A DNA stretch of 64,000 nucleotides from an uncultured Actinomycetes bacterium (GCA_963767005.1 CAVYCN010000002.1:384001-448000), one strand, 5' to 3'. Shown: positions 22,319-62,982, numbered from the stretch's first letter. Program-made: numbers and translations. Notes: a model not told the origin generated them from the sequence alone.

Positions 22319-22319
22319 G

Positions 22320-34286: not shown

Positions 34287-34313
34287 CTATCGGCGATATC
34301 CGGCGAAGGTTTA
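34287..34313 (-). promoter_or_regulatory. sigma28/WhiG-type promoter of the GT87-epimerase-reductase-gtrB-GT2 operon
   Basis: TAAA-15 nt-GCCGATAG, immediately downstream of a terminator. Confidence 0.75.
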
Positions 34314-34327
34314 CGAAGCGGGCAACG

Positions 34328-34352
34328 AAAAACGACCGGCCGGGGCCGGTCG
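34328..34352 (-). terminator. Intrinsic terminator after XRE gene
   Basis: CGACCGGC-cccg-GCCGGTCG-TTTTT on -. Confidence 0.7.
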
Positions 34353-34383
34353 CGGAGGGCGGAAGGGCGCTCTCGCCGTCGCG

Positions 34384-34788
34384 TCAGACGGCCAGGATCT
34401 GCGAGCGTTCGCCGTTCGTGTGGCCGTTACCGGAGCGCTCCAGCATGGCCTTCATCTCGTCGGACAGCGGCGTGTGCAGCAGCAGCACGCTGTAGAGAGC
34501 GTCGATCAGGTGCGTGGAGGCGTCGAGCACGTCGGCCACCTGGCGCAGGCGGAACTCGAGGAAGAAGTCGGGCTCGACGCAGAGTGCCGTCGCGATGATG
34601 CGGATGACCGGGTCGGCGGGCACCGGACGGGTGCCCTTGGTGAGATGGTTGAGGTAGCCGGCCGAAAGCTGGGTCTTGTAGGCGAGCTGCCGGTAGCTCA
34701 GGTGGCGCTCCTCCATGAGGCCCTTGAGAGCAGCCTGGAAGCGCTCGCGAGAGTAACGCGGCCGGTTCGGTTTGAGCATGGTCTGCAT
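34384..34788 (-). CDS. XRE-family HTH regulator
   Basis: LSYRQLAYKTQLSAGYLNHLTKGTR.P...IATALCVEP. Confidence 0.85.
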   Translation of the reverse strand: MQTMLKPNRPRYSRERFQAALKGLMEERHLSYRQLAYKTQLSAGYLNHLTKGTRPVPADPVIRIIATALCVEPDFFLEFRLRQVADVLDASTHLIDALYSVLLLHTPLSDEMKAMLERSGNGHTNGERSQILAV

Positions 34789-34799
34789 ATCGCTAGACG

Positions 34800-34827
34800 T
34801 TATCGCCCAAAGCCGCCAACAACTTGA
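34800..34827 (-). promoter_or_regulatory. sigma28/WhiG-type promoter of XRE gene
   Basis: TCAAG-15 nt-GGCGATAA. Confidence 0.55.
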
Positions 34828-34907
34828 GGGGACTGCAGGCCTTTTGTCGCCCGTTCAGACAACGCGCGAGCCTGAGCCGCGGCCGGCCGCGGGGGCGCGA
34901 CGGCGCG

Positions 34908-36602: not shown

Positions 36603-36840
36603 GCGGGACTCCTGACGTGTCGTTCGGGCGGGGCCGGGGCGCTGCCGCCGGCCCCCCTGACGTGGCCCCCGGCGGGGCGACCGGCGCGGGGCGACGGCTG
36701 TCATGATACGGCACCCGTGGCGCGAGCCGCAATCGTGGGGCCGGCTTGCGCCAGCCCCGTTGCGGAGGCTCGCGCCGCCTCCATATACTCGCCCTGACCC
36801 CGGGCGCCGTTCCGGTCCGGGAGCGGCGAAAGGAGCGGTC

Positions 36841-37800
<960 letters not shown>

Positions 37801-37806
37801 CCCGAG

Positions 37807-39969
37807 GTGAGCTCCCGCAAGCGGCGCGCCCCCGCGCGGACCGGCCGGCGGCCGCCGGCCCCGCGCGCGGCCCCGCCCCCCGCCGACCGCCCCACCGCGG
37901 CGCCGCCGCCCCGGCCGGCCACCGCCGCGGGTGCACCGGCAGCCGCACCGGCCGCCCGCTTCATGCCCGCGGCCACCCTGGCGGTCACCTTCGCCGGCGC
38001 GCTCATCCTGTTCGCCCTGACGCTCGCGCCCACCATCACCTTTGAGGACGCCGGCGAGCTGATCGCCGCGGCCTCGTCGCTGGGCGTCCCCCACGAGCCG
38101 GGCTACCCGCTCTGGACCCTGGTCGCCCACGCCTTCACCTGGCTGCCGATCGGCAACGTCGCGCTCCGCTGCAACCTCATGTCGGCCGTCTTTACCGCCC
38201 TGGCGGCGGCGCTCGTCGCGTGGGCGACGATGCTCATCGTCGACGACTGCCGGGGCGGCGGGGCCGGCGGCCGGCCGGGCAGCGCACGACGGTCCGGCTC
38301 CGCCGCCCCGGGCCGGGCCCAGGCCGACTTGGCCGCGGCCTCCCCGTGGTGGCCGGCGACCGGCGCCGGCAGCCTGCTCCCGTGTGCCGCCGGACTGGCG
38401 GCCGGCCTGCTGGCGGCCACCGCCGCCACCACCTGGAGCCAGGCGATCATCACCGAGGTCTACGGCCTGAACGCCGCGCTTGTCGGCCTCCTCCTCGTGC
38501 TCACGCTGGTCTGGGGCCGGGCGCCGACGGCGCGCCTGCGGGGCCGGCTGTTCCTTGCGATCTGCCTCGTGATGGGGCTCGGCCTGACGGCCCACGACAC
38601 GTTCATCGTCTTTCTGCCGGTCGTCGCCCTCTACGGCCTCGTCCTCGAACGCCGTCTGCGACCCTCGTGGGGGCGCCTCGCGGCCGGCGCCGGCATGTAC
38701 TTCCTCGGCCTTGCTCCGTACCTGTACCTGCCGCTCGCCGCCGCCCGCTCACCGCTGATGGACTGGGGCGATCCCCGCTCCTGGACGACCTTCTGGCGGG
38801 TGGTCACGCGGCGGCAGTACGTGACCGGCGGCCACTCCGGCCCGCGCGCCACGCTCGCCGAGCTCGGCACGAGCGTGTCGCTGCTCGTCCACCAGTGGCT
38901 GCCCTTGCTGCTCGTGCTGGCCGCCGTCGGCCTCGCCGTCCTCTTCACGCGGCGCCGGCCCCTGTTCTGGCTGGCCGTCGCCCTGGTGGTCGCCACCTGG
39001 CCGGTAGTGACCCTCGTCACCGACTTCCCCACAAACACGGCCACAGCCTCGCTGAACGCCGACGACCGCGCCCTCGTGTCCGTCTTCTACATCCCCTCGT
39101 ACCTCGTGCTCGCCCTGCTCATGGGGCTCGGTGCCTGGTGGCTCGCGGCGCGGGTGCTGACGTGGCGCGCCGCGCAGCGGTCGGCGGGTGCGCCCGCGCT
39201 CGCCGGCGTCCTGGCGGCCATTCTCGTGGCCGTGCCGCTCGGCCTCGGCGCGGCCCGCGCGCCGAGCCTCACCATGCATCGCTACCGCTTCGCCGACGCC
39301 TACATCCACAACGTGCTGCTCCTCGCCGCGCCGCACTCCCTGATCATGGTCGACCGCGACCAGTTCGGCTTTCCACTCGACTACGCCCAGGACGTCGACG
39401 GCCTACGGCCCGACGTCGTGGTCCTCGACCAGGAGCTGCTGCGCCGGAGCTGGTACCTGCACGACCTGCAGCGCCGCTACCCCGCGCTGATCGCCGGCTC
39501 ACGCACCCAGGTCCAGGCGTTCCTGACGGCGGTCGCGCCGTTCGAGGCGGGCCGGCCGTACGACGGCAGCGCGATCGACACCGCCTACTACGCGATGATC
39601 GCCTCGCTCGTGCGTCAGTACGCCGCTGCCGGGCGCAGCGTCTATTTCACGTATGGTCCCGACGCGCGCATCGTGAGCGGGTTCTACGGCGAGCCGCTCG
39701 CCGTCGTGCTGGGGGCGCGTACCACAGGGCCGGGCAAGACCGAGGCCGCGCTGCAGCGCTGGCTCACGCCGGTCGACCTCGGCCGCTACGACTTCGCCCA
39801 CCTGACCGACGGCACCGTGCCGCTCGACCGCAACGTGCTCATGATCCGCACCTGGTACGGCGAGGTCCTCTCCAGGCGCGCCGAGCTGCTCGCCGAGGCG
39901 GGCAGTGCGAGCCAGGCCGCCGCCTTTGCCGCGCTCGCCACGAAGTTCGGGGCAAAGAGCGGCAACTAG
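37807..39969 (+). CDS. DUF2723 / TMEM260-family GT-C membrane protein
   Basis: TLAPTITFEDAGELIAA..LGVPHEPGYPLW, WSQAIITEVY, YLYLPL...DWGDP. Confidence 0.82.
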   Translation: MSSRKRRAPARTGRRPPAPRAAPPPADRPTAAPPPRPATAAGAPAAAPAARFMPAATLAVTFAGALILFALTLAPTITFEDAGELIAAASSLGVPHEPGYPLWTLVAHAFTWLPIGNVALRCNLMSAVFTALAAALVAWATMLIVDDCRGGGAGGRPGSARRSGSAAPGRAQADLAAASPWWPATGAGSLLPCAAGLAAGLLAATAATTWSQAIITEVYGLNAALVGLLLVLTLVWGRAPTARLRGRLFLAICLVMGLGLTAHDTFIVFLPVVALYGLVLERRLRPSWGRLAAGAGMYFLGLAPYLYLPLAAARSPLMDWGDPRSWTTFWRVVTRRQYVTGGHSGPRATLAELGTSVSLLVHQWLPLLLVLAAVGLAVLFTRRRPLFWLAVALVVATWPVVTLVTDFPTNTATASLNADDRALVSVFYIPSYLVLALLMGLGAWWLAARVLTWRAAQRSAGAPALAGVLAAILVAVPLGLGAARAPSLTMHRYRFADAYIHNVLLLAAPHSLIMVDRDQFGFPLDYAQDVDGLRPDVVVLDQELLRRSWYLHDLQRRYPALIAGSRTQVQAFLTAVAPFEAGRPYDGSAIDTAYYAMIASLVRQYAAAGRSVYFTYGPDARIVSGFYGEPLAVVLGARTTGPGKTEAALQRWLTPVDLGRYDFAHLTDGTVPLDRNVLMIRTWYGEVLSRRAELLAEAGSASQAAAFAALATKFGAKSGN

Positions 39970-40014
39970 GTCGCGCGCGACGACGGGTCCGCCGATCGAG
40001 CCCGTCGCTGAGGC

Positions 40015-41181: not shown

Positions 41182-41198
41182 CCGACCGCACTCGCGCC

Positions 41199-41948
41199 TC
41201 AGCCCGAAGCGAGCGCCTCGAGGGCGGCCGGCACGTCGGAGAGGCGAGCCACGACGGCGTCCGCGCCGCCGCGCGGCGCCCCCTCGGCGGCGATCAGGAT
41301 CGCGCGGCAACCGGCGGCACGAGCCATGGCCACGTCGCTTGCCGTGCTGTCACCGACCACGACGATCTCGGCCGGTCTCAGGCCATGGTCGCGCTCCACG
41401 CATTCGAGCAGGTACGTGCCGGGCTTGCCGGCGCAGAAGTCCCAGGAGCGCCCGAGACGCGCGACGACCCTGTCGATCGTCTCACGCGCCGCGGGCCGGC
41501 GCTCGCCGTCACCGACCGGGTAGTCGGTGTCTAGGTTGGCGGCGATGAACTCGGCGCCGGGTGCGAGATCGAGCGGCAGCGACGCGGCGTCGAACTGCGG
41601 CGCGAAACCGACGACGAGCGCCTGGGCGCGGACCGGGTCGGCCGTCACGGCGACTCCATGGGCGCGCAGCTCGTCGCCCAGACCGGGCAGCCCCACGACG
41701 TAGACCTCGGTGTAGCCGCGCTCGACCGCATAACGCGCGACCGCCACGGCCGACGAGTAGATCTCGGCCCGCGCTGCCGCGATGCCCATCGCGGCGAGGC
41801 GCTCGCACAGCCCGCGGGCACCGACGGCGGAGGCGTTGGTGACGAACAGCGTCGCCAGGTCGCGGGCGCGCACCGCGGCGACGACCTCGGGGGCTCCGGG
41901 CACCACCCGACTGCCGACATACAGCGTGCCGTCGAGGTCGAAGGCCAC
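41199..41948 (-). CDS. HAD-IIA (NagD-like) phosphatase; true start possibly upstream
   Basis: FDLDGTL, VTN, GKP, VVGDS..SD. Confidence 0.85.
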   Translation of the reverse strand: MAFDLDGTLYVGSRVVPGAPEVVAAVRARDLATLFVTNASAVGARGLCERLAAMGIAAARAEIYSSAVAVARYAVERGYTEVYVVGLPGLGDELRAHGVAVTADPVRAQALVVGFAPQFDAASLPLDLAPGAEFIAANLDTDYPVGDGERRPAARETIDRVVARLGRSWDFCAGKPGTYLLECVERDHGLRPAEIVVVGDSTASDVAMARAAGCRAILIAAEGAPRGGADAVVARLSDVPAALEALASG

Positions 41949-42012
41949 CGCCCTGACCGGATCGGTGACGGGCGCCGTCGCCGGCGCCGCCGACGAGCCG
42001 CCGCGGCCGGCC

Positions 42013-42828
42013 TCAGCCGTAGACGCCTCCGGCCGCCTCGATCAGCGCGTCGTAGCGCGTCTGCAACATCTCGAGGCGCATCGCGTCCTCGCAGGAGATC
42101 GCCTGGTAGAAGTCGCGCTTGTTCTTGAGCCACATGAGCTCGAAGCCGACGGCCTTGAGGATGCCGGCATCGGCGCCGCTGCAAAGCGCTGCGGGGCACT
42201 CGAAGATGACCTTGCGGGTCTCATAGCGGTCGAGGCAGCCATCGGGCAGGTCGCGCATGAACGGCAGCGAGGCGGCCGACACGCCGCCGCCCATGCCGCA
42301 GGCGAGGCCAGAACCCTTGGCCCGCGAGAACAGGTCGGCGGCCATGGTGAAGATCGCGGGCTCGTTGATGTCCTCGCGGCTCATGCCCAGGGAGCCGGTC
42401 ATGTCGACCCGGCCGAGCACGATGCCGTCGAGCTCGCCGATCTCGGGCAGGGCGAGCATGTCGGCGAACTTCTCATAGCCCGTGACGGTCTCGACGTTGA
42501 CGCAGAACTCGACGTCGGCGCGCTCGTCGTCGGGGAAGGCCAGGCGTACCGCGGCGAGGTACTTGCGCAGGGCGTGCGGCGACTCGACCATGGGCCCCAC
42601 AACGCGCTGCACGCCGATCACTCGCGCCTCGTACATGTCGCGCACGGCCTCGCAGCCGCCGATCTTGATGGTCAGCCCGAGGCCGGCCTGCGTCACGACC
42701 TCCTTGAGGCGCAGCGCCTCTTCGAGTCGCGTGCCCTCGGCCTCGAACTCGGCCTTCACACCGCTCACGTGGTGGTTCTCGCGCAGGTCGATGAGCGCGT
42801 CGACCATGCGGTGTTCGAGTGCGTTCAT
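42013..42828 (-). CDS. HpcH/HpaI aldolase / citrate-lyase-like protein
   Basis: KAEFEAEG, KIGGCEA, PMVES, NVET, GRVD, YETRK. Confidence 0.7.
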   Translation of the reverse strand: MNALEHRMVDALIDLRENHHVSGVKAEFEAEGTRLEEALRLKEVVTQAGLGLTIKIGGCEAVRDMYEARVIGVQRVVGPMVESPHALRKYLAAVRLAFPDDERADVEFCVNVETVTGYEKFADMLALPEIGELDGIVLGRVDMTGSLGMSREDINEPAIFTMAADLFSRAKGSGLACGMGGGVSAASLPFMRDLPDGCLDRYETRKVIFECPAALCSGADAGILKAVGFELMWLKNKRDFYQAISCEDAMRLEMLQTRYDALIEAAGGVYG

Positions 42829-44705: not shown

Positions 44706-44781
44706 CGCCGCCTGCTCACCTCGCTCCTGTCGGGCTCCGTCACGCCTCTGCCGCCTCCGCGGCCGGGTTCGCCGGTCCTCG

Positions 44782-45666
44782 TCATGGGTCGACCAGCAGC
44801 AGCGTCCGGTCGATGCTCGATCGGCGTTGCGCATACCAGTCGTAGAGCTCGGCCACGGCCTGTTCCATGGGCGGCGGCGCCAGGTCCGGCAGCTCGTCGC
44901 GCAGGCGCCGGCCGTCGCCGCTGTACTCCACGCCCAGGCCTTCGTTCGCGACGAGCACGGGCACGTCCTTCCCGCTCAGACGCACGACGAGGCGAGCCAG
45001 GTCGAGGAGGCGCCACGACTCGGAGGCCGAGACGTTGTAGGCGCCGTGGGCCGGATCGTGCGTGAAGAAGCGTTCGATCACCAGCGCGAGGTGGCGCACC
45101 GGCGTGTAGTCGAAGCGACGGTCCTGATGCAGGGTGACCGGCAGGTCGAGGAGCGTCTTGCAGATCGCGTTCGAGATGAACCTGATGGCGTAGTCCTCGT
45201 GGGGCCCGAACACGCCAAACGGCCGCAACTCGACCATGTCGAGTCGCGTCGCGGCGTAGGCCGCGCACAGGTACTTCGAGAAGCCGTGCTCGTCGCGCGG
45301 GACGTGCTCGCCGAACGCGGTCTCGGGCAGCCGCGGGCGGTAGTGACGCTCGTCGTAGACCGCCCCGGAGCTCACGAAGACGAGCCGCCGGTACCGGCCT
45401 CGGCAGCGCGCCAGGTTGGCGAACATGCGCACGTTGCGCTCGAGCTGACCGCTCGGGTCGGCGGCGTGACGATGGCCCGGACGCACGGCGCAGTGCACCA
45501 CGACCTCGACGGCGTGGGTATCGAGGTACGCCTCGACCCGCTCCTCGTCGAGCAGCTCGAGCTCGCCGTGTGGCGGCGCGAGCAGCTCCCAGCGCGCGCC
45601 GAGCTCCTCGACCAGGTTGCGGCCGATGAAGCCGGCGCCGCCGGTGATCAGCACCGCGCCGCTCAC
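44782..45666 (-). CDS. NAD-dependent epimerase/reductase (SDR)
   Basis: ITGGAGFIG, SSGAVY, HGFSK (YxxxK variant), FGVFGPHE. Confidence 0.82.
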   Translation of the reverse strand: MSGAVLITGGAGFIGRNLVEELGARWELLAPPHGELELLDEERVEAYLDTHAVEVVVHCAVRPGHRHAADPSGQLERNVRMFANLARCRGRYRRLVFVSSGAVYDERHYRPRLPETAFGEHVPRDEHGFSKYLCAAYAATRLDMVELRPFGVFGPHEDYAIRFISNAICKTLLDLPVTLHQDRRFDYTPVRHLALVIERFFTHDPAHGAYNVSASESWRLLDLARLVVRLSGKDVPVLVANEGLGVEYSGDGRRLRDELPDLAPPPMEQAVAELYDWYAQRRSSIDRTLLLVDP

Positions 45667-47357
45667 GACCGGCTCCCAGCGGCCGCGAACGCCCCACCGG
45701 GGACCCGTCGAAACACGACGTACTGGGGCCGCACGAGCACCACCCGGCAGTCGAGACCTGCGCTGAAGCGAGCGCGCAGCGTCGCGTCGGTGAGGCCGGC
45801 GGTGCCCACCAGGCGGATGACGACGTCGGGCAGGACGTGCGTACGGGCGTAGTAGGCGAGCGTCGCCGGCGGCAGTGCCCCGGGGTCGTCGTTGACGTCG
45901 AGCCCCTGCGCGCTCGAGATCCAGACCGAGTTGGTGGCCACGCCGTGCGGCCAGAACAAGTAGAAGGCGGGCGCCTGATAGAACACGAGCAGGCGGTCCG
46001 TGGGGCGCGTCAGGCGGGCGAGGTCGCCGCGCAGCTGCGCGAGGTACGCCGCTCGCTCGGGCGTCGCCCGCACGCCGGCGTACGGGCCGCTGTGGATCGT
46101 GGCGGTGAGATGCGACAGAGGCACGGCACGCGGCAGGAACTGATACTCGTAGACGACGGTGACGGCGAGCATGCCGGCCAGGCAGGCGACACCGAGGGCG
46201 GGCAGGGCGCGGCGCAGCCGCGCCGGCTCGCCCTCGCGCGGCGAGAGCGAGAGCGCCAGGAACACGCCGGAGAGCACGACCGCCGGCAGCAGCCCCACGT
46301 CCATCTGCAGCCAGCCCGAGGCGCTCGTGTAGCCCGACACGAGGCCGGCGGCAAGCGACGGCAGGTACCCCCAGAGCAGGAGGGTGGTCACGAGCGCGCG
46401 ACGCTCGGCCGGCGCGAAGAGGGCGAAGTACGGCGCCGCGAGCCCGTAGATCACGGCGAAGCCGTCGCCGCCCGACACGAGCTGCTCGCCGAAGGGCAGC
46501 AGCGCGAGCGGTGCCGCGACGAGGGCGAGGCGGGCAAGCGGCAGGCGCCGGTAGGCCACCCACAGCGCGAGGGCCGCGACCACAACGAGCGGGTACAGCT
46601 CGAGATGGCCGGCGGCGCCGTCGACCACACCCCAGAGCTTCGCCGGGCCTCCGCCCGAGTTCAGGCGGCCCCAGTCCGCGAGCTGGTAGCGCAGGCAGCG
46701 CAGTACGTTGCTCACGCCGAAGAGGGCGAGCAGGAGCGCCTCGCCGGCCAGCGTGACCGCGGCGCCCAGGACGAAGGCGACGAGGCTGCGCCGGCGGCTA
46801 CCGCGAGCGGCGGCCGCCGCGAGACAGGCGGCGCTCACCGGCAGTACGGCGACGAGCGACGGGTAGGCGAGGACCGCGAGCGCCTGGGCGGCACCGGCGC
46901 CGGCGAGGCTGCGCCGGCCGGCGCCGCCCGTGAGCGCGCGGGTCCCGAGGGCCATGGCGATCACGAGAAGGCCAGCGCCGATCGTGTTGTAGGTGAGGTC
47001 GCTGGTCGTCGCGATCACGAACGTCGAGCACACGAGCGCGGCCAGCAGCGCGTGCTCCCAGCGCACGACCCGGCGCAGGGCGCTCCAGACGACGCTCGCG
47101 ACGACGAGCGTCCAGGCAAGGTACAGGTGACGCATGAACAGCACGATGCCGGTCGAGCCGCGCAGCGCCACGTACAGCTTGACGAAGGGGTACGAGAAGA
47201 ACCCCACGGTCTGCAGGATGTTCATCTCGTCGACGAAGGGCCGTGCACCGAGCGCGAAGCGGTAGGGCACCGCGACCGCGAAGCCCTCGTCGGTCAGGTC
47301 GACGCCCAGAAACAGGCGGCGCCAGGCGAAAACGAGCGCGATCGCGGCCAGGGCCAC
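45663..47357 (-). CDS. Multi-TM putative GT-C glycosyltransferase; start possibly at ATT 47432
   Basis: GVDLTDEG acidic first-loop motif, many TMs, C-terminal extracytoplasmic domain; follows gtrB-like gene. Confidence 0.6.
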   Translation of the reverse strand: MALAAIALVFAWRRLFLGVDLTDEGFAVAVPYRFALGARPFVDEMNILQTVGFFSYPFVKLYVALRGSTGIVLFMRHLYLAWTLVVASVVWSALRRVVRWEHALLAALVCSTFVIATTSDLTYNTIGAGLLVIAMALGTRALTGGAGRRSLAGAGAAQALAVLAYPSLVAVLPVSAACLAAAAARGSRRRSLVAFVLGAAVTLAGEALLLALFGVSNVLRCLRYQLADWGRLNSGGGPAKLWGVVDGAAGHLELYPLVVVAALALWVAYRRLPLARLALVAAPLALLPFGEQLVSGGDGFAVIYGLAAPYFALFAPAERRALVTTLLLWGYLPSLAAGLVSGYTSASGWLQMDVGLLPAVVLSGVFLALSLSPREGEPARLRRALPALGVACLAGMLAVTVVYEYQFLPRAVPLSHLTATIHSGPYAGVRATPERAAYLAQLRGDLARLTRPTDRLLVFYQAPAFYLFWPHGVATNSVWISSAQGLDVNDDPGALPPATLAYYARTHVLPDVVIRLVGTAGLTDATLRARFSAGLDCRVVLVRPQYVVFRRVPGGAFAAAGSRS

Positions 47358-47421
47358 GGTGACCGTGGCCAGCAGCGGCGGCGCCGCGCGCCGCCGGCGT
47401 CGCGCGAGCAGATCGCCGGCC

Positions 47422-48354
47422 TCAGTCGAAATTGATGCGCTCCTTCTCGACGACGAGCGGGCGATGGTAGACCTGCGTGTGGATGGCGCCGATGTACTCG
47501 CCCACGATGCCGATGAACAGCAGCTGCACCGCGCCGAAGAAGTAGATGCCGATCAGCACGGGCGCCAGGCCGAAGTCGAAGGTGTCCCAGAAGACGAGCT
47601 TCATGACGAGGTAGATGACCGAGATGCCCATCGCCAGGACGGCCATGAGAAAGCCGGCCATCGTGGCCAGGCGTAGCGGCACCTTGGAGTGGTTCGTGAT
47701 GCCGAGCATGGCGAGGTCCCAGAGTGTGTAGCGGTTGTTCTTGGTCAGGCCGTGTTTGCGGGCCGGCTGGTAGTAGCTGATCTCGGCGCGCTCGTAGCCC
47801 AGGTCGCAGATCATGCCGCGGAAGTACGGGTAGGGGTCGTCGATCTCGCGGACCTTGTCCATGACCTCGCGGTCGTACAGGCCGAAGCCGGTGAAGTTGC
47901 GCACGAGGGGCACATCGGACAGCCGTTCGATCACCGAGTAGTAGGCGGCCCGGATCCAGCGCATGGGCGGGCGCTCCTCGCTCGCCGCTCGCACGCCGAC
48001 GACGACCTTGTAGCCCTCCTCCCAGCGTTGCACGAACTCGGCGATGAGCTCGGGTGGGTCCTGCAGGTCGGCAACGATGTAGATGACGGCCTCGCCGCGT
48101 GCCTCCAGCATGGCGTGGTGGGGCGAGCGCAGGTGGCCGAAGTTGCGCGTGTTGACGATGACGCGCACGCGGGGGTCGGCCGCGGCCAGCTCACGCAGCG
48201 CGGCGACGGTGCCGTCGGTGGAGGCGTTGTCGATGAACAGGTGCTCGTACGTGTAGCCGGGCAGCCCTTCGACGACCGCGCGCACTCGCTCGTAGAGCTC
48301 GCGCACGTTGTCCTCTTCGTTGTAGCAACCCGTGACCACGGAGATGAACGGCAT
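47422..48354 (-). CDS. GtrB-like polyprenyl-phosphate glycosyltransferase (GT2)
   Basis: CYNEEDN, IDNASTD, RNFGH, ADLQDPPE, two TMs, GEYIG..RPLV. Confidence 0.9.
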   Translation of the reverse strand: MPFISVVTGCYNEEDNVRELYERVRAVVEGLPGYTYEHLFIDNASTDGTVAALRELAAADPRVRVIVNTRNFGHLRSPHHAMLEARGEAVIYIVADLQDPPELIAEFVQRWEEGYKVVVGVRAASEERPPMRWIRAAYYSVIERLSDVPLVRNFTGFGLYDREVMDKVREIDDPYPYFRGMICDLGYERAEISYYQPARKHGLTKNNRYTLWDLAMLGITNHSKVPLRLATMAGFLMAVLAMGISVIYLVMKLVFWDTFDFGLAPVLIGIYFFGAVQLLFIGIVGEYIGAIHTQVYHRPLVVEKERINFD

Positions 48355-48395
48355 GGGCGGCAGTCCTTTGTGACGCTTGGCGACGTACTGTTGCC

Positions 48396-48423
48396 TTATC
48401 GGCTTACACCGGCCGTTCCGTTA
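48396..48423 (-). promoter_or_regulatory. sigma28/WhiG-type promoter of gtrB-GT-C-SDR-yerE-aldolase-HAD
   Basis: TAAC-16 nt-GCCGATAA. Confidence 0.7.
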
Positions 48424-48449
48424 GACGTCGGCGCCCTCCCCGGAGGCCG

Positions 48450-48887
48450 CTACCGTGCCGGCGCGAAGCTGAAGTACTTGTTGGCGACGTAGGTGCTGAC
48501 CACGACCGCCACAGTGAAGGCCGCCTGGATCAGGTACACGCTGAACGGCAGGGTGCGCAGGGCCACGGGCAGCACGATCAGGTTCACGACGAGCACGGCC
48601 GCGTAGACCACGAGGAAGCGCGGCACCTCGCGCCGCACCGGGCCGTGGCTGCGGAACACGATGGTGCGGTAGAGCACGTAGTTGTTGATCACCCCAACGA
48701 CGGTCGAGGCGACCAGGGCGGTCATCGAGCCGCTCACCCGGGCCATGCCGGCGGTGTCGTGCAGGAGGTGGTAGAAGAGTGCGAAGGCGCCGTAGCCGAA
48801 CAGCGTGTTCCAGCCCCCCACCACCACATACAGGACCTGCTCGCGGCGACGCACGAGGGTCTCGCGGGCGCCCGCCCAGCCGATCAT
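48450..48887 (-). CDS. GtrA-family flippase-like protein
   Basis: YVVVGGWNTL, NNYVLYRTIVF, four TMs, YVANKYFSF. Confidence 0.85.
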   Translation of the reverse strand: MIGWAGARETLVRRREQVLYVVVGGWNTLFGYGAFALFYHLLHDTAGMARVSGSMTALVASTVVGVINNYVLYRTIVFRSHGPVRREVPRFLVVYAAVLVVNLIVLPVALRTLPFSVYLIQAAFTVAVVVSTYVANKYFSFAPAR

Positions 48888-48894
48888 CAGCGCC

Positions 48895-50403
48895 TCACTC
48901 GGACACGCTGCCCGCAGCCACGGAGGCCCGGGCGTCGGCGGACGCCGGTGCGCCCGAGGCGACATCGCCCGCAGGCTCGCCGAGCCGCACGCTCACGAGC
49001 AGCAGCAGCTGCAGCACGACGAGGAGCGTGTACTTGCTCCCTTGCAGCGAGGCCGAGATCAGGAGCGTCGATCGGGCCAGCAGCATCATGGTGAGCGACA
49101 GGGTGGCAAACAGCACGACCCAGGTCGTGCCGGGTCCGCGCCGCGCCGTCGCCAGCGTGGTCGCAAGCACGGCGATCGGCAGGACGCACAGGACGAGCTT
49201 GTAGTCGTTGCTGACGGTCGGCACGATCGCCATCATCGGCACGCAGGCGGCGCCGAGCAGCACGGCGCCGCGCTCGCTCCACCCGCGGCGCACGACCGCG
49301 ACGACGGTGGCGAGCCACAGGGCGGACGGCGCCGCGATGAGCGGCCAGAAGATCCAGGTGGGCGCCCAGCTCGTATGGTCGCGCAGCACGTAGGCCGTGG
49401 CGGTCGCGGAGTCCTGGCCCCACCACTCCTGCGTGCTGCTCGTGCTCAGGGCCCGCAGCGTCGTGAATGCGTGCAGCATGTTGGCCGGCCCGGCGACGAG
49501 CAGCACGACCGCGGTGGTCACGGCCACGGGCAGAAGCGCCTTCAAGCGGTAGCGCCAGAGCAGCACGACCACGAGGATCGCCGGGTAGAGCTTGAGGCCG
49601 GTGGCGAGGGCGAGGGCGGCGGCCGCCGGCCAGGGCGAGCGCGTGCCGCGCACCGTGAGCCAGAGGGCGAGCAACGAGAAGGCCAGCGCGTAGAGGTCGA
49701 TGTTGCCGCGGTCGACCTCGTAGAAGAAGCCGTACGAGGTGAGCAGCCACAGGCCGGAGACGGCCGCCACCATCGTCGTCTCGAGGGGCCGCCCGGCGCG
49801 CGCCGCAGACCTCTCCCCCACCGCGCGCATCGCAAGGTGGGCGGACAGCAGCGTGGCGCCGAGCGCCAGCGCGACGAGGATGACCACCTGCACGTGATAG
49901 CCGGCGGTCAGGCTCAGCAGCGTGAACGGCTTGCCCAGGTAGAGCGACAGCGGCGGCCAGGCGCTGTGCACGGTCGTGAAGGCGCGCGCCGGGTCGTACA
50001 GTCCGTCGCGAAAATCGACGCCGGCCGGGTGTGCGCGCGGCACGAGCAGGGTCCACACGCCGCGGCCGAACTTGAGCGAGTAGACGCAGATGTTCCAGCC
50101 GACGCCGGCCAGGGCGACGACGCCGAGCCAGACGACGGCGTTGGTGCGCTCGCCGCCGACCTCGAGGGCGGCGAGCGCCGCGACCAGACCGGCGACCGCG
50201 ACCGGCACCATGAAGCCCAGGCGCGGCACGACGACGAAGTAACCGCCGCCCCGGGCGAGCACGACCGCGATCTCGAGGGCACCGAGCGCCCCGAGCAGCA
50301 GACCCACCCAGGCGCCGGTGCGATGCAGCGCCGAATCGCCCGACGACTGCCGCGTCGTGGGCAACCGTCCGGCCACCCGCGTTCCTCCGGCGTCGCCACT
50401 CAT
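48895..50403 (-). CDS. GT87/DUF2029-like GT-C membrane glycosyltransferase
   Basis: GVDF, WPP, EVDRGNID, GLKLYP, SNDYKL; multi-TM. Confidence 0.7.
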   Translation of the reverse strand: MSGDAGGTRVAGRLPTTRQSSGDSALHRTGAWVGLLLGALGALEIAVVLARGGGYFVVVPRLGFMVPVAVAGLVAALAALEVGGERTNAVVWLGVVALAGVGWNICVYSLKFGRGVWTLLVPRAHPAGVDFRDGLYDPARAFTTVHSAWPPLSLYLGKPFTLLSLTAGYHVQVVILVALALGATLLSAHLAMRAVGERSAARAGRPLETTMVAAVSGLWLLTSYGFFYEVDRGNIDLYALAFSLLALWLTVRGTRSPWPAAAALALATGLKLYPAILVVVLLWRYRLKALLPVAVTTAVVLLVAGPANMLHAFTTLRALSTSSTQEWWGQDSATATAYVLRDHTSWAPTWIFWPLIAAPSALWLATVVAVVRRGWSERGAVLLGAACVPMMAIVPTVSNDYKLVLCVLPIAVLATTLATARRGPGTTWVVLFATLSLTMMLLARSTLLISASLQGSKYTLLVVLQLLLLVSVRLGEPAGDVASGAPASADARASVAAGSVSE

Positions 50404-51791
50404 GCGCCCGCCCCGCGCAGACCGTCGGCGATCGCGCCCGCGATGTGGTCGACCATCTCGTCGGTGAGACCCGGATACACACCGACCCAGAGCGCGTCCG
50501 TCATCAGGCGGTCCGTGTTCTCGAGGCTCGAGGCCACCCGGTAGCCGGCGCCGCTCGCGCGCAGCCCGTCGAAGCACGGCTGGCGGACGATGTTGCCGGC
50601 GAAGAGCATGCGGGTCTGCACGCCGGCCGCCTCGAGGTGGCCCACGAGACGATCGCGCACGATGCCGTCGTGCCGGGCCGCGGCGGTCAGGGTGAGCAGG
50701 CAGCCGAACCAGCTCGGCTCGCTGCCCGGCGTGGCGCGCGGCAGCACGAGCAGGTCGGCAAACGGCTCCAAGGCAGCGATCAGACGGGCGTGGTTCGCGC
50801 GGCGCCGCTCCGTGAACTCGTCGAGCCGGGCGAGCTGGGCGCAGCCGACCGCCGCCTGCAGGTCGGTGGGTCGCAGGTTGTAGCCAAAGTGCGAGTAGAC
50901 GTATTTGTGGTCGTAGCCGTAGGGCAGCTCACCCAGGTGGTGTGAGAAACGCCGCCCGCAGCTGTCGTCGACCCCGGGCGGGCAGACGCAGTCGCGCCCC
51001 CAGTCGCGCAGCGAGGCGACGATCGAGCCCAGCTCGGCGCTCGAGGTATAGACCGCACCGCCCTCTCCCATGGTCACGTGATGGGGCGGGTAGAAGCTGC
51101 TCGTGGCGAGGTCGCCGAAGGTCCCCGTAAGACGGCCCCCGTAGCGCGAGCCGAGGGCGTCGCAGTTGTCCTCGATGAGCCACAGCTCGTGCTCGTCGCA
51201 GAACGCCCGTACGGCCGCCACGTCGAAGGGATTGCCCAGCGTGTGGGCAAGGAACACGGCCTTGCTGCGCGAACCGAGCGCGGCGGGCAACAGGGTCGCG
51301 TCGACGTTGGCCGTGGCCGGGTCGACGTCGACGAACACCGGCACCGCGCCGTACTGGACGATGGGCGCCACCGTGGTCGGGAAGCCGGCGGCCACCGTGA
51401 TGACCTCGTCGCCGGGCATGACGCGGCGCTCGCCGAGGCGCGGGCTCGTCAGTGCCATGAAAGCCAACAGGTTGGCCGACGAGCCCGAGTTCACGAGCAG
51501 GCACCGGCGCACGCCGAGCAGCGCCGCGAGCTCGCGCTCGAAGCGCGCGCTGTAGCGTCCGGCGGTCAGCCAGAAGTCGAGCGCAGCGTCGACCAGGCCG
51601 ACGATCTCCGCGGCACCGAACACGCGCCCGCCGTAGGGCACGCGCGAGCTGCCCGGCACGAAGCTGTCGGGGTCGGTGCCGGGGGCGGCGAGGGCGCGCC
51701 GTGGCGCGCCCTCGCCGCCCCCGAACGCCTCGTCGTAGTAGCGCTCGACGAGGGCGAGGATCTCGATTCGCAGATCGTCGGCGCGTGTCAT
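50400..51791 (-). CDS. rfbH: CDP-4-keto-6-deoxy-D-glucose 3-dehydrase (E1)
   Basis: DFWLTAG, AHTLGNPF, EDNCDALG, SFYPPHH (His in place of PLP Lys), DWGRDCVC...SC, YDHKY. Confidence 0.93.
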   Translation of the reverse strand: MTRADDLRIEILALVERYYDEAFGGGEGAPRRALAAPGTDPDSFVPGSSRVPYGGRVFGAAEIVGLVDAALDFWLTAGRYSARFERELAALLGVRRCLLVNSGSSANLLAFMALTSPRLGERRVMPGDEVITVAAGFPTTVAPIVQYGAVPVFVDVDPATANVDATLLPAALGSRSKAVFLAHTLGNPFDVAAVRAFCDEHELWLIEDNCDALGSRYGGRLTGTFGDLATSSFYPPHHVTMGEGGAVYTSSAELGSIVASLRDWGRDCVCPPGVDDSCGRRFSHHLGELPYGYDHKYVYSHFGYNLRPTDLQAAVGCAQLARLDEFTERRRANHARLIAALEPFADLLVLPRATPGSEPSWFGCLLTLTAAARHDGIVRDRLVGHLEAAGVQTRMLFAGNIVRQPCFDGLRASGAGYRVASSLENTDRLMTDALWVGVYPGLTDEMVDHIAGAIADGLRGAGA

Positions 51792-52978
51792 ACCGTCCGT
51801 CCCGCGATCGCGGTCGCGCGTGCCGTAGCCCACTCCAGGCCGCTCTCTCGAGCGGCCGTCACGAAGGCGGCGACGTCGGCGCGCATCGCGACGCGAGCGT
51901 CGCCGCCGGCCGCCCGCTGTCGATACCAGGCGGCGCTGCGCGCGACGGCCTCGTCGACCGTCCAGACCGGCCGCACACCGAGCCGTTCGCGCGCCAGTGA
52001 GCTGTCGAGGGTGAGCGCCGCGGCCTCGTGCGGCTCTGCCGCGACGGAGCGCAGCGGATGCCAGGAGCCGGCGCCGTAGGCCGCCAGGAAGGCCGTGACC
52101 ACATCACCCACGGCCACGCAGCCGGCAGCGTCCGGTCCCAGGTTCCAGGCGCGGGCGAGCACGCCGTCGCCGGCCAGCAGGCGCGCGCCCAGCCAGAGAT
52201 ACCCGGCGAGCGGCTCGAGCACGTGCTGCCAGGGCCGCACGGCGTCGGGGCGGCGCACCACGACGGGTGTGCCGGCGGCCACGGCGCGCACGCAGTCGGG
52301 CACGAGACGGTCGACCGCCCAGTCGCCGCCGCCAATCACGTTGCCGGCGCGGGCGCTCGCCACCTGCACGCCGGCCGCGGCGCAGAAGCTCCTGCGGTAC
52401 GCCGCCGTGACGATCTCGGCGCAGCCCTTGCTCGCGCTATAGGGGTCGTGACCGCCGAGCGGGTCGTCCTCGGCAAACGGCGCGCGCGTCGCGGCGCGGC
52501 GCGCGCCGGCCGGCTCATCCTCTGTCTCCGGGTTCTCATAGCACTTGTCGCTCGTGACGACCACGACGGCGCGCACCGACTGACAGGCCCGTACCGCCTC
52601 GAAGAGGTTCACGAGGCCCATGACGTTCGTTGCGAACGTGCCATGCGGGTCGTCGTAGGAGGCGCGCACGATGGGCTGAGCGGCGAGATGCACGACGAGC
52701 TCGGGCGCAAAGCCGGCCACCGCCGCGGCGAGCGCGGCGAGGTCGCGTACGTCCCCGGCGACGTGCGCGACCTCGTCGTCCAGGCCACCCAGCACGAAGA
52801 GGCTCGGGTCGGTAGGCGGCTCGAGCGCGTAGCCTCCGACCACGGCGCCCAGGTCGGCGAGCCAGCCGCACAGCCACGAACCTTTGAAGCCGGTGTCGCC
52901 TGTCACCAGCACCCGCCGGCCTTCGTAGAGACCACCGAAGGGGGCGTCGCCGGTGTGCGGGGCTGCCTCGGGCGTCAC
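51788..52978 (-). CDS. rfbG: CDP-glucose 4,6-dehydratase
   Basis: TGDTGFKGSWL, HLAAQPIV, TSDKCYEN, DPYSASK, RAGNVIGGGDW, RPWQHVLEP. Confidence 0.95.
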   Translation of the reverse strand: MTPEAAPHTGDAPFGGLYEGRRVLVTGDTGFKGSWLCGWLADLGAVVGGYALEPPTDPSLFVLGGLDDEVAHVAGDVRDLAALAAAVAGFAPELVVHLAAQPIVRASYDDPHGTFATNVMGLVNLFEAVRACQSVRAVVVVTSDKCYENPETEDEPAGARRAATRAPFAEDDPLGGHDPYSASKGCAEIVTAAYRRSFCAAAGVQVASARAGNVIGGGDWAVDRLVPDCVRAVAAGTPVVVRRPDAVRPWQHVLEPLAGYLWLGARLLAGDGVLARAWNLGPDAAGCVAVGDVVTAFLAAYGAGSWHPLRSVAAEPHEAAALTLDSSLARERLGVRPVWTVDEAVARSAAWYRQRAAGGDARVAMRADVAAFVTAARESGLEWATARATAIAGRTV

Positions 52979-53748
52979 CAGACCCTCCAGGGCGCCGCGC
53001 CCGAGCGCCAGAGCTGCTCGAGCAGGGCTTTGTCGCGCAGCACGTCGACCGGCTGCCAGAAGCCGCGATGTCGGTACGCCATGAGCTCGCCGTCGCGCGC
53101 GAGGCCTTCGAGCGGCTCGTGCTCGAAGTAGGTCTCGTCGCCGGCGATGTAGTCGAGCACGGCGGGCTCGAGCACGAAGAAGCCGCCGTTGACCCAGGCG
53201 CCGTCGCCGGCCGGCTTCTCGGTGAACGACGTCACGTGCCGGCCCTCGCGGTCGAGCTCGAGCGCGCCGAAGCGGCCGAGCGGCTGGACCGCCGTCACCG
53301 TGGCGAGGCGCCCGTGGCCGGTGTGGAAGTCGACGAGGGAGCCGATGTCGACGTCGGCCACGCCGTCGCCGTAGGTCAGCAGGAAGCGCTCGCCGTCGAG
53401 GTGCTCGGCGACGCGCTTCACCCGGCCGCCGGTCTGCGTGTCGGCGCCGGTGTCGACCAGCGTCACGCGCCAGGGCTCGACGTCGCCGTCGTGGACCTCC
53501 ATCGTGCGCCCCTGCAGGTCGAAGGTCACGTTCGCACTGTGCAGGAAGTAGTTGGCGAAGTACTCCTTGATCACGTAGCCCTTGTAGCCGAGACAGATCA
53601 CGAAGTCGGTGAAGCCGTAGTGGCCGTAGATCTTCATGACGTGCCACAGGAGCGGCCGGTCGCCGACCTCGGCCATGGGCTTCGGCTTGACCTGCGTCTC
53701 CTCCGACAGGCGAGTGCCGAGCCCGCCGGCAAGGATCACGACCTTCAC
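52975..53748 (-). CDS. rfbF: Glucose-1-phosphate cytidylyltransferase
   Basis: LAGGLGTRLSEET..KPKPM, TGGR, TYGDGV, NGGFF, GFWQP. Confidence 0.96.
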   Translation of the reverse strand: MKVVILAGGLGTRLSEETQVKPKPMAEVGDRPLLWHVMKIYGHYGFTDFVICLGYKGYVIKEYFANYFLHSANVTFDLQGRTMEVHDGDVEPWRVTLVDTGADTQTGGRVKRVAEHLDGERFLLTYGDGVADVDIGSLVDFHTGHGRLATVTAVQPLGRFGALELDREGRHVTSFTEKPAGDGAWVNGGFFVLEPAVLDYIAGDETYFEHEPLEGLARDGELMAYRHRGFWQPVDVLRDKALLEQLWRSGAAPWRVW

Positions 53749-53825
53749 GTGCGCCCTCCAGAGTGCGTCGATGGCCGAACGCCGCGCCGGGGGCGGCACC
53801 CCGTCTCCCGCGCGGCACAGCCCTT

Positions 53826-53853
53826 GTATCGGCACCGTTGCCCGTTTTGGTTA
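53826..53853 (-). promoter_or_regulatory. sigma28/WhiG-type promoter of rfbF operon (proximal)
   Basis: TAAC-16 nt-GCCGATAC. Confidence 0.65.
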
Positions 53854-53879
53854 CGGCGACGGCACGACGAACCCTCTCA

Positions 53880-53907
53880 TCATCGGCGGGTCGGTCGTGT
53901 GACCTTA
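53880..53907 (-). promoter_or_regulatory. sigma28/WhiG-type promoter of rfbF operon (distal)
   Basis: TAAG-16 nt-GCCGATGA. Confidence 0.6.
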
Positions 53908-55153: not shown

Positions 55154-55348
55154 GTCTCCCTCTGTCGGTCGTCCGGCCGAGCGTGCGCGCCGGCCCTGAG
55201 CCCATGATGCATCATCGGCACGCCGGGCGCGAACCGTATCGTTCCCGTCAAGCCTCTCATCGACGCAGCGGGCCACGGAAGGAGCCGCCGGGCGCCGTGG
55301 CCGGCCCCGCGGCGAAGGCCGCGCAGGTGGCGCAAGCCGGCTGCGAGA

Positions 55349-62813: not shown

Positions 62814-62982
62814 CGGGTACCCGCTGCCCGCGTCGCCACCGGGGGCGACGACGCTCTCATGCTACCACCACTGCAGGTCGTGCCGTAGTACCGGGGCTCG
62901 GCGCGTCGCGCCGGGGACGCCGCCGCTGCCTGGTCGAGGCGCCCGCCCGGGGCGGCGCCCGCCGCGCTGAAGGACGCGGTGC

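What the first reader, a model, noticed from the sequence alone, without database searches (positions are those of the whole stretch)
34287..53907. Candidate c-di-GMP/RsiG-WhiG regulon that switches on rare-sugar surface glycosylation
Seen: five intergenic sigma28-type boxes, all on - and directly upstream of operon starts. They are TAAA-N15-GCCGATAG (34287-34313, GT87 operon), TCAAG-N15-GGCGATAA (34800-34827, XRE), TAAC-N16-GCCGATAA (48396-48423, gtrB operon), and two in tandem before rfbF, TAAC-N16-GCCGATAC (53826-53853) and TAAG-N16-GCCGATGA (53880-53907). The housekeeping promoters I could read use sigmaA-like boxes instead. The window also encodes WhiG with KYVAGR (61995-62813) and an RsiG-like protein (20687-20968). 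Established: FliA/WhiG recognise TAAA-N15/16-GCCGATAA; RsiG holds WhiG inactive when c-di-GMP is bound; in Rubrobacter this switch is linked to type IV pili. Inference: when c-di-GMP falls, WhiG turns on synthesis and lipid-carrier transfer of unusual sugars onto a surface target, perhaps pili. I do not know of this link having been described.
Basis: partly seen in the sequence, partly recalled or inferred. Interest (0 to 1): 0.85.

Follow-up and report, generated by a model that had tools for sequence, protein, structure and literature searches.

The report
WhiG regulon coupling pili and glycans

Summary
All five boxes are present as written and belong to a genome-wide sigma-28/WhiG motif: 62 intergenic sites at 16 bits or more against 2.8 in shuffles, 61 facing a gene, with a matrix trained without them. 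The genome has one WhiG, a single-motif RsiG and no flagellin. The motif also precedes pilA, pilM, pilT, pilB, six DGC/PDE genes, a capsule wzc operon and an operon ending in two Pmt-type transferases.

The window cluster is predicted to make a CDP-derived branched 3,6-dideoxy sugar and export it through GtrB/GtrA to GT-C transferases. In two relatives from two other genera this whole cluster lies inside the pilus locus just before pilA. However, 35 of 40 sampled pilus loci carry no glycan gene.

New layers found: a palindromic operator (TGTTGYC-N6-GRCAACA) at the xre, rfbF, gtrB and whiG promoters, and a c-di-GMP-I riboswitch in the pilA leader.

Corrections: the proximal rfbF box is not conserved (2 of 11), the gtrB box is an internal promoter, and the GT87a operon is nearly strain-specific. 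No start sites, WhiG dependence or glycoproteins are shown. Verdict: a new variant of a known regulon.

The parts
53880..53907 (-). distal sigma-28-type box, 131 nt before rfbF; the conserved one
   Evidence: 19.1 bits; -10 GCCGATGA and the block behind it invariant in 11 of 11 aligned genus loci, -35 variable
53836..53855 (.). palindromic operator-like site (TGTTGYC-N6-GRCAACA family), about 25 nt behind the distal -10
   Evidence: 11.9 bits with a matrix trained only on xre upstream sites of relatives; 11.7 bits or more in 11 of 11 genus loci; position
53826..53853 (-). proximal sigma-28-type box, 77 nt before rfbF; not conserved
   Evidence: 20.5 bits; present in G000 and G011 only, 2 of 11
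52975..53748 (-). rfbF, glucose-1-phosphate cytidylyltransferase
   Evidence: TIGR02623 above cut-off
51788..52978 (-). rfbG, CDP-glucose 4,6-dehydratase
   Evidence: TIGR02622 above cut-off
50400..51833 (-). rfbH, E1-type 3-dehydratase
   Evidence: NF011936 657 vs 423 bits
48895..50376 (-). GT87-family GT-C transferase (GT87b)
   Evidence: PF09594
48450..48887 (-). GtrA-type flippase
   Evidence: PF04138
48396..48423 (-). internal sigma-28-type box at the gtrA 3' end, 41 nt before gtrB
   Evidence: 21.2 bits; kept in 7 of the 11 genus genomes with a gtrB match, moves with gtrA, precedes GT87b in G007 and G010
48389..48408 (.). palindromic operator-like site overlapping the -10 of the gtrB box
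   Evidence: 11.3 bits; position
47422..48354 (-). GtrB/ArnC-like GT2, predicted polyprenyl-phosphate sugar synthase
   Evidence: PF00535; best NCBIfam PgfS and ArnC, both below cut-off
45663..47357 (-). membrane protein without Pfam or NCBIfam family; predicted GT-C fold with soluble C-terminal domain (GTC564)
   Evidence: AlphaFold pLDDT 87.7; Foldseek top hits AglB/STT3, ArnT, AftD
44782..45666 (-). NAD-dependent epimerase/reductase (YerF/ErwF-like role inferred)
   Evidence: PF01370
42825..44705 (-). ThDP enzyme (YerE/ErwE-like branching role inferred)
   Evidence: Pfam TPP domains; below the acetolactate-synthase equivalog cut-offs shown; best PDB match 8RPH, E 8e-133
42013..42828 (-). 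HpcH/HpaI aldolase (predicted supplier of the keto-acid donor)
   Evidence: PF03328, 24.6 bits, just under the 25 cut-off
41199..41948 (-). HAD phosphatase
   Evidence: PF13344
34845..34864 (.). palindromic operator-like site ending 17 nt upstream of the xre -35
   Evidence: 19.6 bits; found in 15 of 16 proS-linked family loci
34800..34827 (-). sigma-28-type box 11 nt before xre (near-leaderless)
   Evidence: 18.5 bits; 11.8 bits or more in 16 of 16 proS-linked family loci
34384..34788 (-). conserved XRE-family regulator; candidate binder of the palindrome (inferred)
   Evidence: PF13560; homologue in 17 of 18 family relatives
34287..34313 (-). sigma-28-type box 140 nt before GT87a
   Evidence: 20.7 bits; GT87a follows xre in 1 of 10 genus relatives
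29576..34146 (-). second glycan operon: GT87a, RfbC/RmlC-type 3,5-epimerase, NAD-dependent epimerase/reductase, two GT2
   Evidence: PF09594, PF00908, PF01370, PF00535
20687..20968 (-). single-motif RsiG, E-x3-S-x2-R-x3-H-x3-D
   Evidence: PF22802; PDB matches 6PFJ and 7LQ2-4; sequence
61995..62813 (-). WhiG (WhiG2-type residues K57, G61, R62, L236, Y239, E240, L242; T235 is A)
   Evidence: NF004935 above cut-off; alignment to 6PFJ; single copy
62831..62850 (.). palindromic operator-like site just behind the sigmaA-type -10 of whiG (62859-62867)
   Evidence: 15.4 bits; 15 bits or more in G000 and 6 of 11 genus relatives
   Evidence: 15.6 bits; boxes before vanW also in G003, G011 and G014

Best explanation
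These boxes are predicted WhiG promoters of one surface programme that covers type IV pili, c-di-GMP enzymes, a capsule operon and this rare-sugar cluster, and the sugar is likely loaded on a lipid carrier and added outside the membrane to pilin-linked or neighbouring surface glycans when falling c-di-GMP would free WhiG from RsiG. Steps: (1) RsiG dimers hold WhiG while c-di-GMP is bound (established for Rubrobacter and Conexibacter pairs; inferred here from the intact motifs). (2) Free WhiG would fire about 60 promoters (motif shown, firing inferred), among them xre. (3) RfbF, RfbG and RfbH make CDP-4-keto-3,6-dideoxyglucose (family assignments shown). The ThDP enzyme, reductase and aldolase would turn it into an acyl-branched sugar of the yersiniose/erwiniose kind (inferred); the tailoring genes differ between species (shown). 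(4) GtrB would load it on undecaprenyl phosphate, GtrA flip it, and GT87b/GTC564 transfer it (folds predicted, chemistry inferred). A Pmt or PMT_2-type GT-C may place the first sugar on Ser/Thr of pilin (inferred). (5) A palindrome-binding regulator, most simply the WhiG-induced XRE, would damp whiG and the glycan promoters, and a c-di-GMP-I riboswitch gives pilA a second c-di-GMP input (sites shown, binder and direction inferred).
For: Motif statistics. One WhiG with the FliA-type region DELR..WVPRSVR, RsiG present, no flagellin found. Targets: pilA1 25.4 bits (rank 1), pilT2 20.1, pilM 19.6, pilB 18.8, a second pilA 17.3, six GGDEF/HD genes. Glycosyltransferase units boxed 5 of 31 vs 1.2 expected. 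Footprints keep -35 and -10 around a variable spacer at xre and at the gtrA end. The wzc box scores 13 bits or more in 12 of the 16 closest orthologues, from six genera; background is about 4%. The whole rfbF-G-H/TPP/gtrB/GTC564/GT87b cluster lies between pilC-sigF and pilA in G044 and G092, two other genera, behind a 24.3-bit pilB box. A PMT_2 GT-C sits between the pilins in G000 and in a pilus context in 9 of its 20 family loci; one copy sits directly before rfbF. The short major-type pilins are 14-22% Ser/Thr vs 10.6% for the proteome. The riboswitch lies between the box and pilA in G000, and 9 of 10 relative pilus loci have one.
Against: No transcript, mutant or glycoprotein data. 26 of 31 glycosyltransferase units have no box, including the PMT_2 gene among the pilins and the TMEM260-like gene in the window. 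35 of 40 pilus loci sampled hold no glycan gene, and 11 of 20 PMT_2 loci are not at pili. The distal rfbF -35 is weak in 6 of 10 genus relatives (TCCAG, 12.9 bits) and is cut off by the contig end in a seventh; 6 of 13 rfbF genes in genus g20 and those of G012, G017 and G086 have no box. Strict boxes in three other genera (50 matches) lead to regulators, small proteins, rho and pilus genes. In that listing only one precedes a capsule-locus gene, and at 629 nt; the G016 wzc box seen got no gene call there. GT87 enzymes usually extend glycans rather than proteins (recalled), so lipoglycan, wall polymer or capsule acceptors remain open. No E3 reductase gene was seen in the cluster. Relatives are not independent samples, and G044 and G092 are single assemblies.
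Confidence: 0.55

Rival explanations
1. WhiG does control the sugar cluster, but the GtrA/GtrB/GT-C system decorates a wall polymer, lipoglycan or the co-regulated capsule, not pilin. Its insertion into two pilus loci reflects capture of strong WhiG promoters.
For: Three-component systems classically modify O-antigen and other glycans (PMC11127046, passages). The wzc operon is in the same regulon. 35 of 40 pilus loci lack glycan genes. In many genomes the cluster sits beside the uppS-cdsA-dxr-rseP-ispG lipid-carrier genes.
Against: The same slot before pilA is filled by different glycosylation genes in several lineages: PMT_2 GT-C, GT87, GT87 plus Pmt, and whole clusters. Pilin accessory glycosylation genes in P. 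aeruginosa lie in the pilA operon (PMC12035536, passage).
Confidence: 0.3
2. The pilus and DGC/PDE boxes are true WhiG promoters, but the glycan boxes are weak secondary promoters. The cluster is mainly read through from the housekeeping uppS-rseP run and set by the palindrome-binding regulator.
For: Weak -35 at the conserved rfbF box; proximal box in 2 of 11; no box in 6 of 13 g20 genomes, in five of which rfbF directly follows cdsA; gtrA-end box missing in 4 of 11.
Against: Invariant -10 in 11 of 11. A different promoter position (31-33 nt) with box, and in three cases the palindrome, in 5 genomes of g20. 20-21-bit boxes at gtrB and GT87a in G000. Stand-alone PMT_2 genes carry their own boxes in G001 and G003.
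Confidence: 0.12
3. The sigma factor encoded in the pilus locus (C2 502109-502846), not WhiG, reads these boxes, so RsiG would not control them.
For: It sits directly before pilA and is conserved in most pilus loci seen.
Against: It is SigB/F-like (TIGR02980 best, FliA/WhiG far lower) and lacks the DELR..WVPRSVR segment that WhiG shares with FliA. WhiG-less G029 has only 2 strict matches, although WhiG-less G025 has 7 (control 4) and WhiG-bearing G024 only 5.
Confidence: 0.05

Closest known systems
Rubrobacter radiotolerans (RsiG)2-(c-di-GMP)2-WhiG switch (PMC8325347; read: section 14, passages, one supplement searched)
   Same: Single-motif RsiG, WhiG, TAAA-N-GCCGATAA-type boxes before type IV pilus and DGC/PDE genes, no flagellin found here.
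   Different: Here about 60 sites, many with a TCAA -35 variant; glycan, capsule and Pmt operons are targets; a second operator and a pilA riboswitch are added. 'Glycosyl' does not occur in the paper's text; its Fig. 6A lists four further promoters that I could not see.
Predicted WhiG regulons across Actinomycetota (bioRxiv 10.64898/2026.01.14.699351, parts 1-4 of 6 read; published as PMC13595943, text and three supplementary files searched)
   Same: Same motif logic; DGC/PDE, pilus and regulator targets.
   Different: No Thermoleophilia in its text and no glycan category in its target table. That table gives only GO-type labels, so glycan genes could hide under 'catalytic activity'.
Clostridioides difficile SigD control of flagellin glycosylation genes CD0240-0244 (PMC3865298, passages)
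   Same: A sigma-28 factor co-expresses a surface filament and its glycosylation genes.
   Different: Flagellum, FlgM control, genes read through from fliC; here a pilus, RsiG/c-di-GMP, dedicated boxes and lipid-carrier GT-C chemistry.
Pseudomonas aeruginosa TfpW pilin arabinosylation (bioRxiv 10.1101/2020.04.19.049825, abstract; 10.1101/150227, listing)
   Same: Pilin-associated transferase with a lipid-linked sugar and a GtrA-like component; accessory gene beside pilA; strain-variable; protects against phage.
   Different: D-Araf from PRPP rather than a CDP-dideoxy sugar; no sigma-28 control stated in what I read; no direct comparison with TfpW was possible.
Yersiniose/erwiniose branched-sugar pathways, YerE-YerF and ErwE-ErwF-ErwI (PMC9306805, passages)
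   Same: CDP-4-keto-3,6-dideoxyglucose acceptor, ThDP enzyme, reductase, neighbouring aldolase.
   Different: There the sugars go into LPS or lipooligosaccharide (partly recalled); here the genes are paired with GtrA/GtrB/GT-C in a monoderm actinobacterium.

Membership tests
WhiG2/RsiG c-di-GMP switch | FliA/WhiG-clade sigma factor | tested here: met
   NF004935 367.7 vs 343 bits; E 1e-88 to 6PFJ chain A
WhiG2/RsiG c-di-GMP switch | c-di-GMP contacts K57, G61, R62 and RsiG contacts T235, L236, Y239, E240, L242 | tested here: met
   7 of 8 identical, T235 is A (residue list)
WhiG2/RsiG c-di-GMP switch | RsiG with E-x3-S-x2-R-x3-[Q/H]-x3-D | tested here: met
   One motif with H; the H form of Conexibacter binds c-di-GMP (PMC8325347)
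WhiG2/RsiG c-di-GMP switch | c-di-GMP-dependent RsiG-WhiG binding of this pair | not testable with these tools
   needs binding assays
sigma-28/WhiG promoter | -35 T[A/C]AA, 15-16 nt, -10 GCCGATAA-like, intergenic, facing a gene, above chance | tested here: met
sigma-28/WhiG promoter | conservation of both boxes in relatives | tested here: inconclusive
   met for xre (16 of 16) and the gtrA end (7 of 11); -10 only for distal rfbF; not met for proximal rfbF (2 of 11)
sigma-28/WhiG promoter | start site behind the -10 and WhiG dependence | not testable with these tools
   needs TSS mapping and genetics
three-component extracytoplasmic glycosylation (GtrA/GtrB/GT-C) | polyprenyl-phosphate sugar synthase, flippase and GT-C transferase together | tested here: met
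   GT2, PF04138, PF09594 and a predicted GT-C fold in one run; definition in PMC11127046
three-component extracytoplasmic glycosylation (GtrA/GtrB/GT-C) | lipid-linked donor formed and transferred | not testable with these tools
   needs enzymology
pilin glycosylation system (TfpW/TfpO-like) | GT-C gene in the pilA locus | tested here: inconclusive
   met in G000 (PMT_2) and for the window-type cluster in G044 and G092; not met in 35 of 40 sampled loci
pilin glycosylation system (TfpW/TfpO-like) | homology to TfpW or TfpO | not testable with these tools
pilin glycosylation system (TfpW/TfpO-like) | glycosylated pilin | not testable with these tools
   needs mass spectrometry
YerE/ErwE branched-sugar pathway | RfbF, RfbG, RfbH plus ThDP enzyme and reductase in one cluster | tested here: met
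YerE/ErwE branched-sugar pathway | E3 reductase partner of RfbH | tested here: inconclusive
   none seen in the cluster; not searched for elsewhere in the genome
c-di-GMP-I riboswitch (pilA leader, outside the window) | Rfam score above gathering threshold | tested here: met
   63.1 vs 59 bits for RF03167; RF01051 or RF03167 in 9 of 10 relatives

The most novel reading that the evidence does not exclude
This Thermoleophilia family runs an inverted c-di-GMP surface programme: low c-di-GMP turns on pili together with a capsule and a swappable, species-specific branched-sugar coat on pilin (a glyco-cassette slot before pilA, probably a phage shield). A WhiG-induced XRE acting at a new operator, TGTTGYC-N6-GRCAACA, closes a negative loop on whiG and the glycan promoters, and a riboswitch gives pilA a second c-di-GMP gate.
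Probability: 0.25. Interest if true: 0.82.

Novelty: new variant of a known kind. Interest (0 to 1): 0.62.

Why it matters
The RsiG-WhiG switch has known outputs in spores (Streptomyces) and pili plus DGC/PDEs (Rubrobacter). A glycan arm, including a capsule operon kept across six genera, would make polysaccharide synthesis rise when c-di-GMP falls, opposite to the usual rule (recalled). It would extend 'sigma-28 co-expresses a filament and its sugars' from flagella to type IV pili. It points to candidate pilin GT-C enzymes in a Gram-positive lineage and to a route that puts branched 3,6-dideoxy sugars on a lipid carrier. The promoters, the operator and the riboswitch are short parts that can be tested in vitro without culturing the organism.

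Tried and rejected
- The conserved 60-nt block before rfbF as a known RNA: no Rfam match in the window except a tRNA, one copy in the genome and no shared fold. It resolved into a -10 box plus a palindrome.
- A first symmetrised palindrome matrix was out of register and showed no enrichment; it was redone. The matrix was trained on the glycan sites themselves and is not used as evidence.
- The palindrome as ordinary hairpin bias: 0 of 150 column permutations reached the real count, and only spacer 6 peaks.
- XRE as BldD or another named regulator: only generic HTH matches.
- Pattern counts for the palindrome are higher in family f1 (10-49 strand matches) than in other families (0-13, one 21); the reversed-pattern control is weak, so this does not identify the binder.
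- Riboswitches in the long leaders of other targets: no c-di-GMP-type match in eight loci or in the capsule locus.
- No RNA holder was listed.
- Actinoplanes EPS papers: the passages found gave no FliA/WhiG link (PMC13390465, PMC12691653).
- Searches for a published WhiG-glycosylation link found none. bioRxiv supplements and figure panels were not visible.
- Complex prediction was not run: RsiG-WhiG is a textbook pair.
- Gene calls come from my own hexamer model, so starts and unit borders are approximate. One GT2 hit fell in no called gene and was left out of the 31 units, and G092's rfbF was missed but found.
Full report
Setting. The window is G000:C2:384001-448000 of a 3.44-Mb, 71% GC genome. 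Homologous records are titled Thermoleophilia or unclassified Actinomycetota. Genes were called with a self-trained hexamer model (3020 genes), so starts are approximate.

Observation. The five boxes are in the sequence as written. TAA-N16/17-GCCGAT occurs 23 times in the genome, 22 of them intergenic. A first matrix from 18 sites outside the window gave 38 sites at 16 bits or more vs 2.7 in shuffles. Retrained on 31 sites outside the window and the C8 capsule locus, it gave 62 vs 2.8, with 61 of 62 facing a gene; the five boxes rank 22-37. The motif has two -35 forms (TAAV, TCAA) and a distance peak at 19-20. The strict pattern exceeds its reversed control in relatives, for example 24 vs 0 in G014 and 14 vs 0 in G016.

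Who reads it. G000 has one WhiG with the c-di-GMP contacts K57/G61/R62 and four of five RsiG contacts, one single-motif RsiG with the His variant that binds c-di-GMP in Conexibacter, and no flagellin match. The sigma factor in the pilus locus is SigB/F-like and lacks the FliA-type region 2.4-3.0 sequence. whiG itself has a sigmaA-type extended -10 and no sigma-28 box.

The regulon. Boxes precede pilA1 (rank 1), pilM, a second pilT, a second pilA, a receiver-MshEN-PilB protein, pilB (inside the upstream gene), six GGDEF/HD-domain genes, a LuxR-type response regulator, NlpC/P60, CAP, mraZ, rho and several small unknown proteins. This matches the Rubrobacter pattern (PMC8325347 section 14). The glycan arm is the addition: the two window clusters, four boxes in the C8 capsule locus (wzc 21.6, epimerase 21.2, priming transferase 16.3, GT4 16.0) and a 24.4-bit box before HD-GYP, DUF5317 and two Pmt-family genes. 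Units with a GT2, GT4, GT87 or PMT_2 gene are boxed in 6 of 31 cases vs 48 of 1345. With the Pmt site also left out of training the count is 5 of 31 vs 1.2 expected at matched size, P=0.007. Most glycosyltransferase units (26 of 31) are unboxed.

Conservation of each box.
- xre: 16 of 16 proS-linked family loci, both boxes kept around a variable spacer.
- gtrA end: 7 of 11 genus genomes; it travels with gtrA and precedes GT87b in two.
- Distal rfbF: -10 invariant in 11 of 11, -35 weak in six relatives and cut off in one (G004's rfbF is in another context and was left out).
- Proximal rfbF: 2 of 11.
- GT87a operon: follows xre in 1 of 10 genus relatives.
- Genus g20: 6 of 13 rfbF genes have a box of 12 bits or more, five of them at 31-33 nt; one lies in the pilus operon; six have none. 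G012, G017 and G086 have none and G099 is doubtful. Background for 12 bits is about 5%.
- wzc: 13 bits or more in 12 of the 16 closest orthologues (six genera) and in 3 of 14 more distant ones.
- HD-GYP: box in 11 of 12 best loci, but Pmt follows in only 6 of 10.
- The 50 strict matches in three other genera mostly lead to non-glycan genes.

What the cluster makes. RfbF, RfbG and RfbH pass their curated cut-offs. A ThDP enzyme, a reductase and an HpcH-type aldolase follow, the arrangement described for erwiniose, with yersiniose as the prototype (PMC9306805). An acyl-branched 3,6-dideoxy sugar is therefore inferred. Relatives swap the tailoring genes (NeuB-like, FkbM and other methyltransferases, radical SAM), so the sugar likely differs by species. 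GtrB-like GT2, GtrA, GT87 and the orphan 45663-47357 (predicted GT-C fold, best hits AglB/STT3 and ArnT) form a three-component system (PMC11127046).

The acceptor. In G000 a PMT_2 protein with a predicted GT-C fold (Pmt1 and ArnT hits) lies between the pilin genes, about 60 kb from the window cluster. It is found in 16 of 89 family genomes; 9 of its 20 loci are in a pilus context, one is directly before rfbF, ten are elsewhere. In G044 and G092, from two other genera, homologues of rfbF, rfbG, rfbH, the ThDP enzyme, gtrB, GTC564 and GT87b lie in order between pilB-pilT-pilC-sigF and pilA. This looks like an accessory slot, as with tfpO/tfpW in P. aeruginosa, and not a fixed part. I put pilin or pilin-linked glycan as acceptor at about 0.55-0.6 given WhiG control.

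A second operator. Upstream of xre, 15 of 16 family loci carry TGTTGYC-N6-GRCAACA. A matrix from these alone finds 25 intergenic sites at 15 bits or more in G000 vs 0.9 in shuffles; 0 of 150 column permutations match that count and only spacer 6 peaks. Ten of the 50 best sites lie within 200 nt of a box, where 4.7% of intergenic DNA does. It scores the rfbF and gtrB sites at 11.9 and 11.3, within the top 50 of about 407,000 positions. It also scores a site just behind the whiG -10, at 15 bits or more in 6 of 11 genus relatives, and overlaps the rfbF -35 in three g20 genomes. Its position suggests activation at xre and repression at gtrB, rfbF and whiG. XRE as the binder is an inference from self-proximity (about 0.4). 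I do not recognise the motif from memory and did not search papers for it.

A riboswitch. A c-di-GMP-I-type aptamer lies between the top-ranked box and pilA1 (C2 501906-501985), and one is found in 9 of 10 relative pilus loci. It has the canonical G20/A47/C92 bases by recalled numbering. It shows the leader is meant to be transcribed and ties pilA to a cyclic dinucleotide independently of the motif; its direction is unknown (fold).

Comparison and novelty. The switch and its pilus and DGC/PDE targets are published (PMC8325347; PMC13595943). A sigma-28 factor co-expressing a filament and its glycosylation genes is published for C. difficile flagella (PMC3865298). I found no paper linking WhiG to glycosylation or capsule; figure panels, bioRxiv supplements and most subscription papers were not visible. 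An earlier AI note of this scan (e1-7089321) reports boxes before pilus and glycan operons in another genome; it is unchecked and not counted as support. Verdict: observation confirmed, interpretation partly supported, new variant of a known kind, interest 0.62.

Noticed in passing
L002:17907-17986 (-), G000:C2:501906-501985: c-di-GMP-I-type riboswitch in the 280-nt pilA1 leader, behind the best WhiG box; one in 9 of 10 relative pilus loci, two copies in G013.
   Followed up: partly
window 34845-34864, 48389-48408, 53836-53855, 62831-62850 and over 20 other sites: Family-wide palindrome TGTTGYC-N6-GRCAACA; the best site lies before the gene ahead of the capsule priming transferase (C8 129316).
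   Followed up: yes
L002:18110-18847 (-): SigB/F-like sigma factor conserved between pilC and pilA across the family; its promoters were not sought.
   Followed up: partly
L002:12294-14665 (-): ABC ATPase, ABC permease and a 252-aa unknown gene between pilA and pilD, resembling Myxococcus pilGHI or Geobacter xap genes (recalled).
   Followed up: no
G000: C2 498867, 500797, 501373, 631945; C7 51877; C11 68972; C16 9159: Seven short, similar major-type pilins spread over the genome; only two have a strong box, which suggests alternative pilins.
   Followed up: partly
window 21097-22898: DUF4388 gene divergent from an mglB-mglA pair whose proteins are 95-99% identical across the genus; no box.
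   Followed up: no
window 37963-39969 (+): TMEM260/DUF2723-like protein O-mannosyltransferase next to the cluster, without a box, present in some relatives only.
   Followed up: partly
G000:C2:70325-70351 and C3:197571-197597: Strong boxes before mraZ (division and cell-wall cluster) and rho; the rho box recurs in G007 and G014.
   Followed up: partly
L013:1331-1528, L014:1920-2168, L105:1438-1722, L102:583-990: Small proteins without a clear Pfam family; three have boxes conserved in other genera and are candidate new WhiG targets.
   Followed up: no
L011:6584-6683 (-): PYLIS element match in a methylamine methyltransferase-like gene that my caller split at this point; suggests pyrrolysine read-through.
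   Followed up: no
window 20990-21060 (approximate): Inverted repeat TCAAC-N5-GTTGA upstream of the rsiG-FHA-merR run.
   Followed up: no
window 55212-55238 (-): Weak box (TACGG...GCCGATGA, 11.8 bits) before rseP, like the TACAG form before rfbF in genus g20.
   Followed up: no
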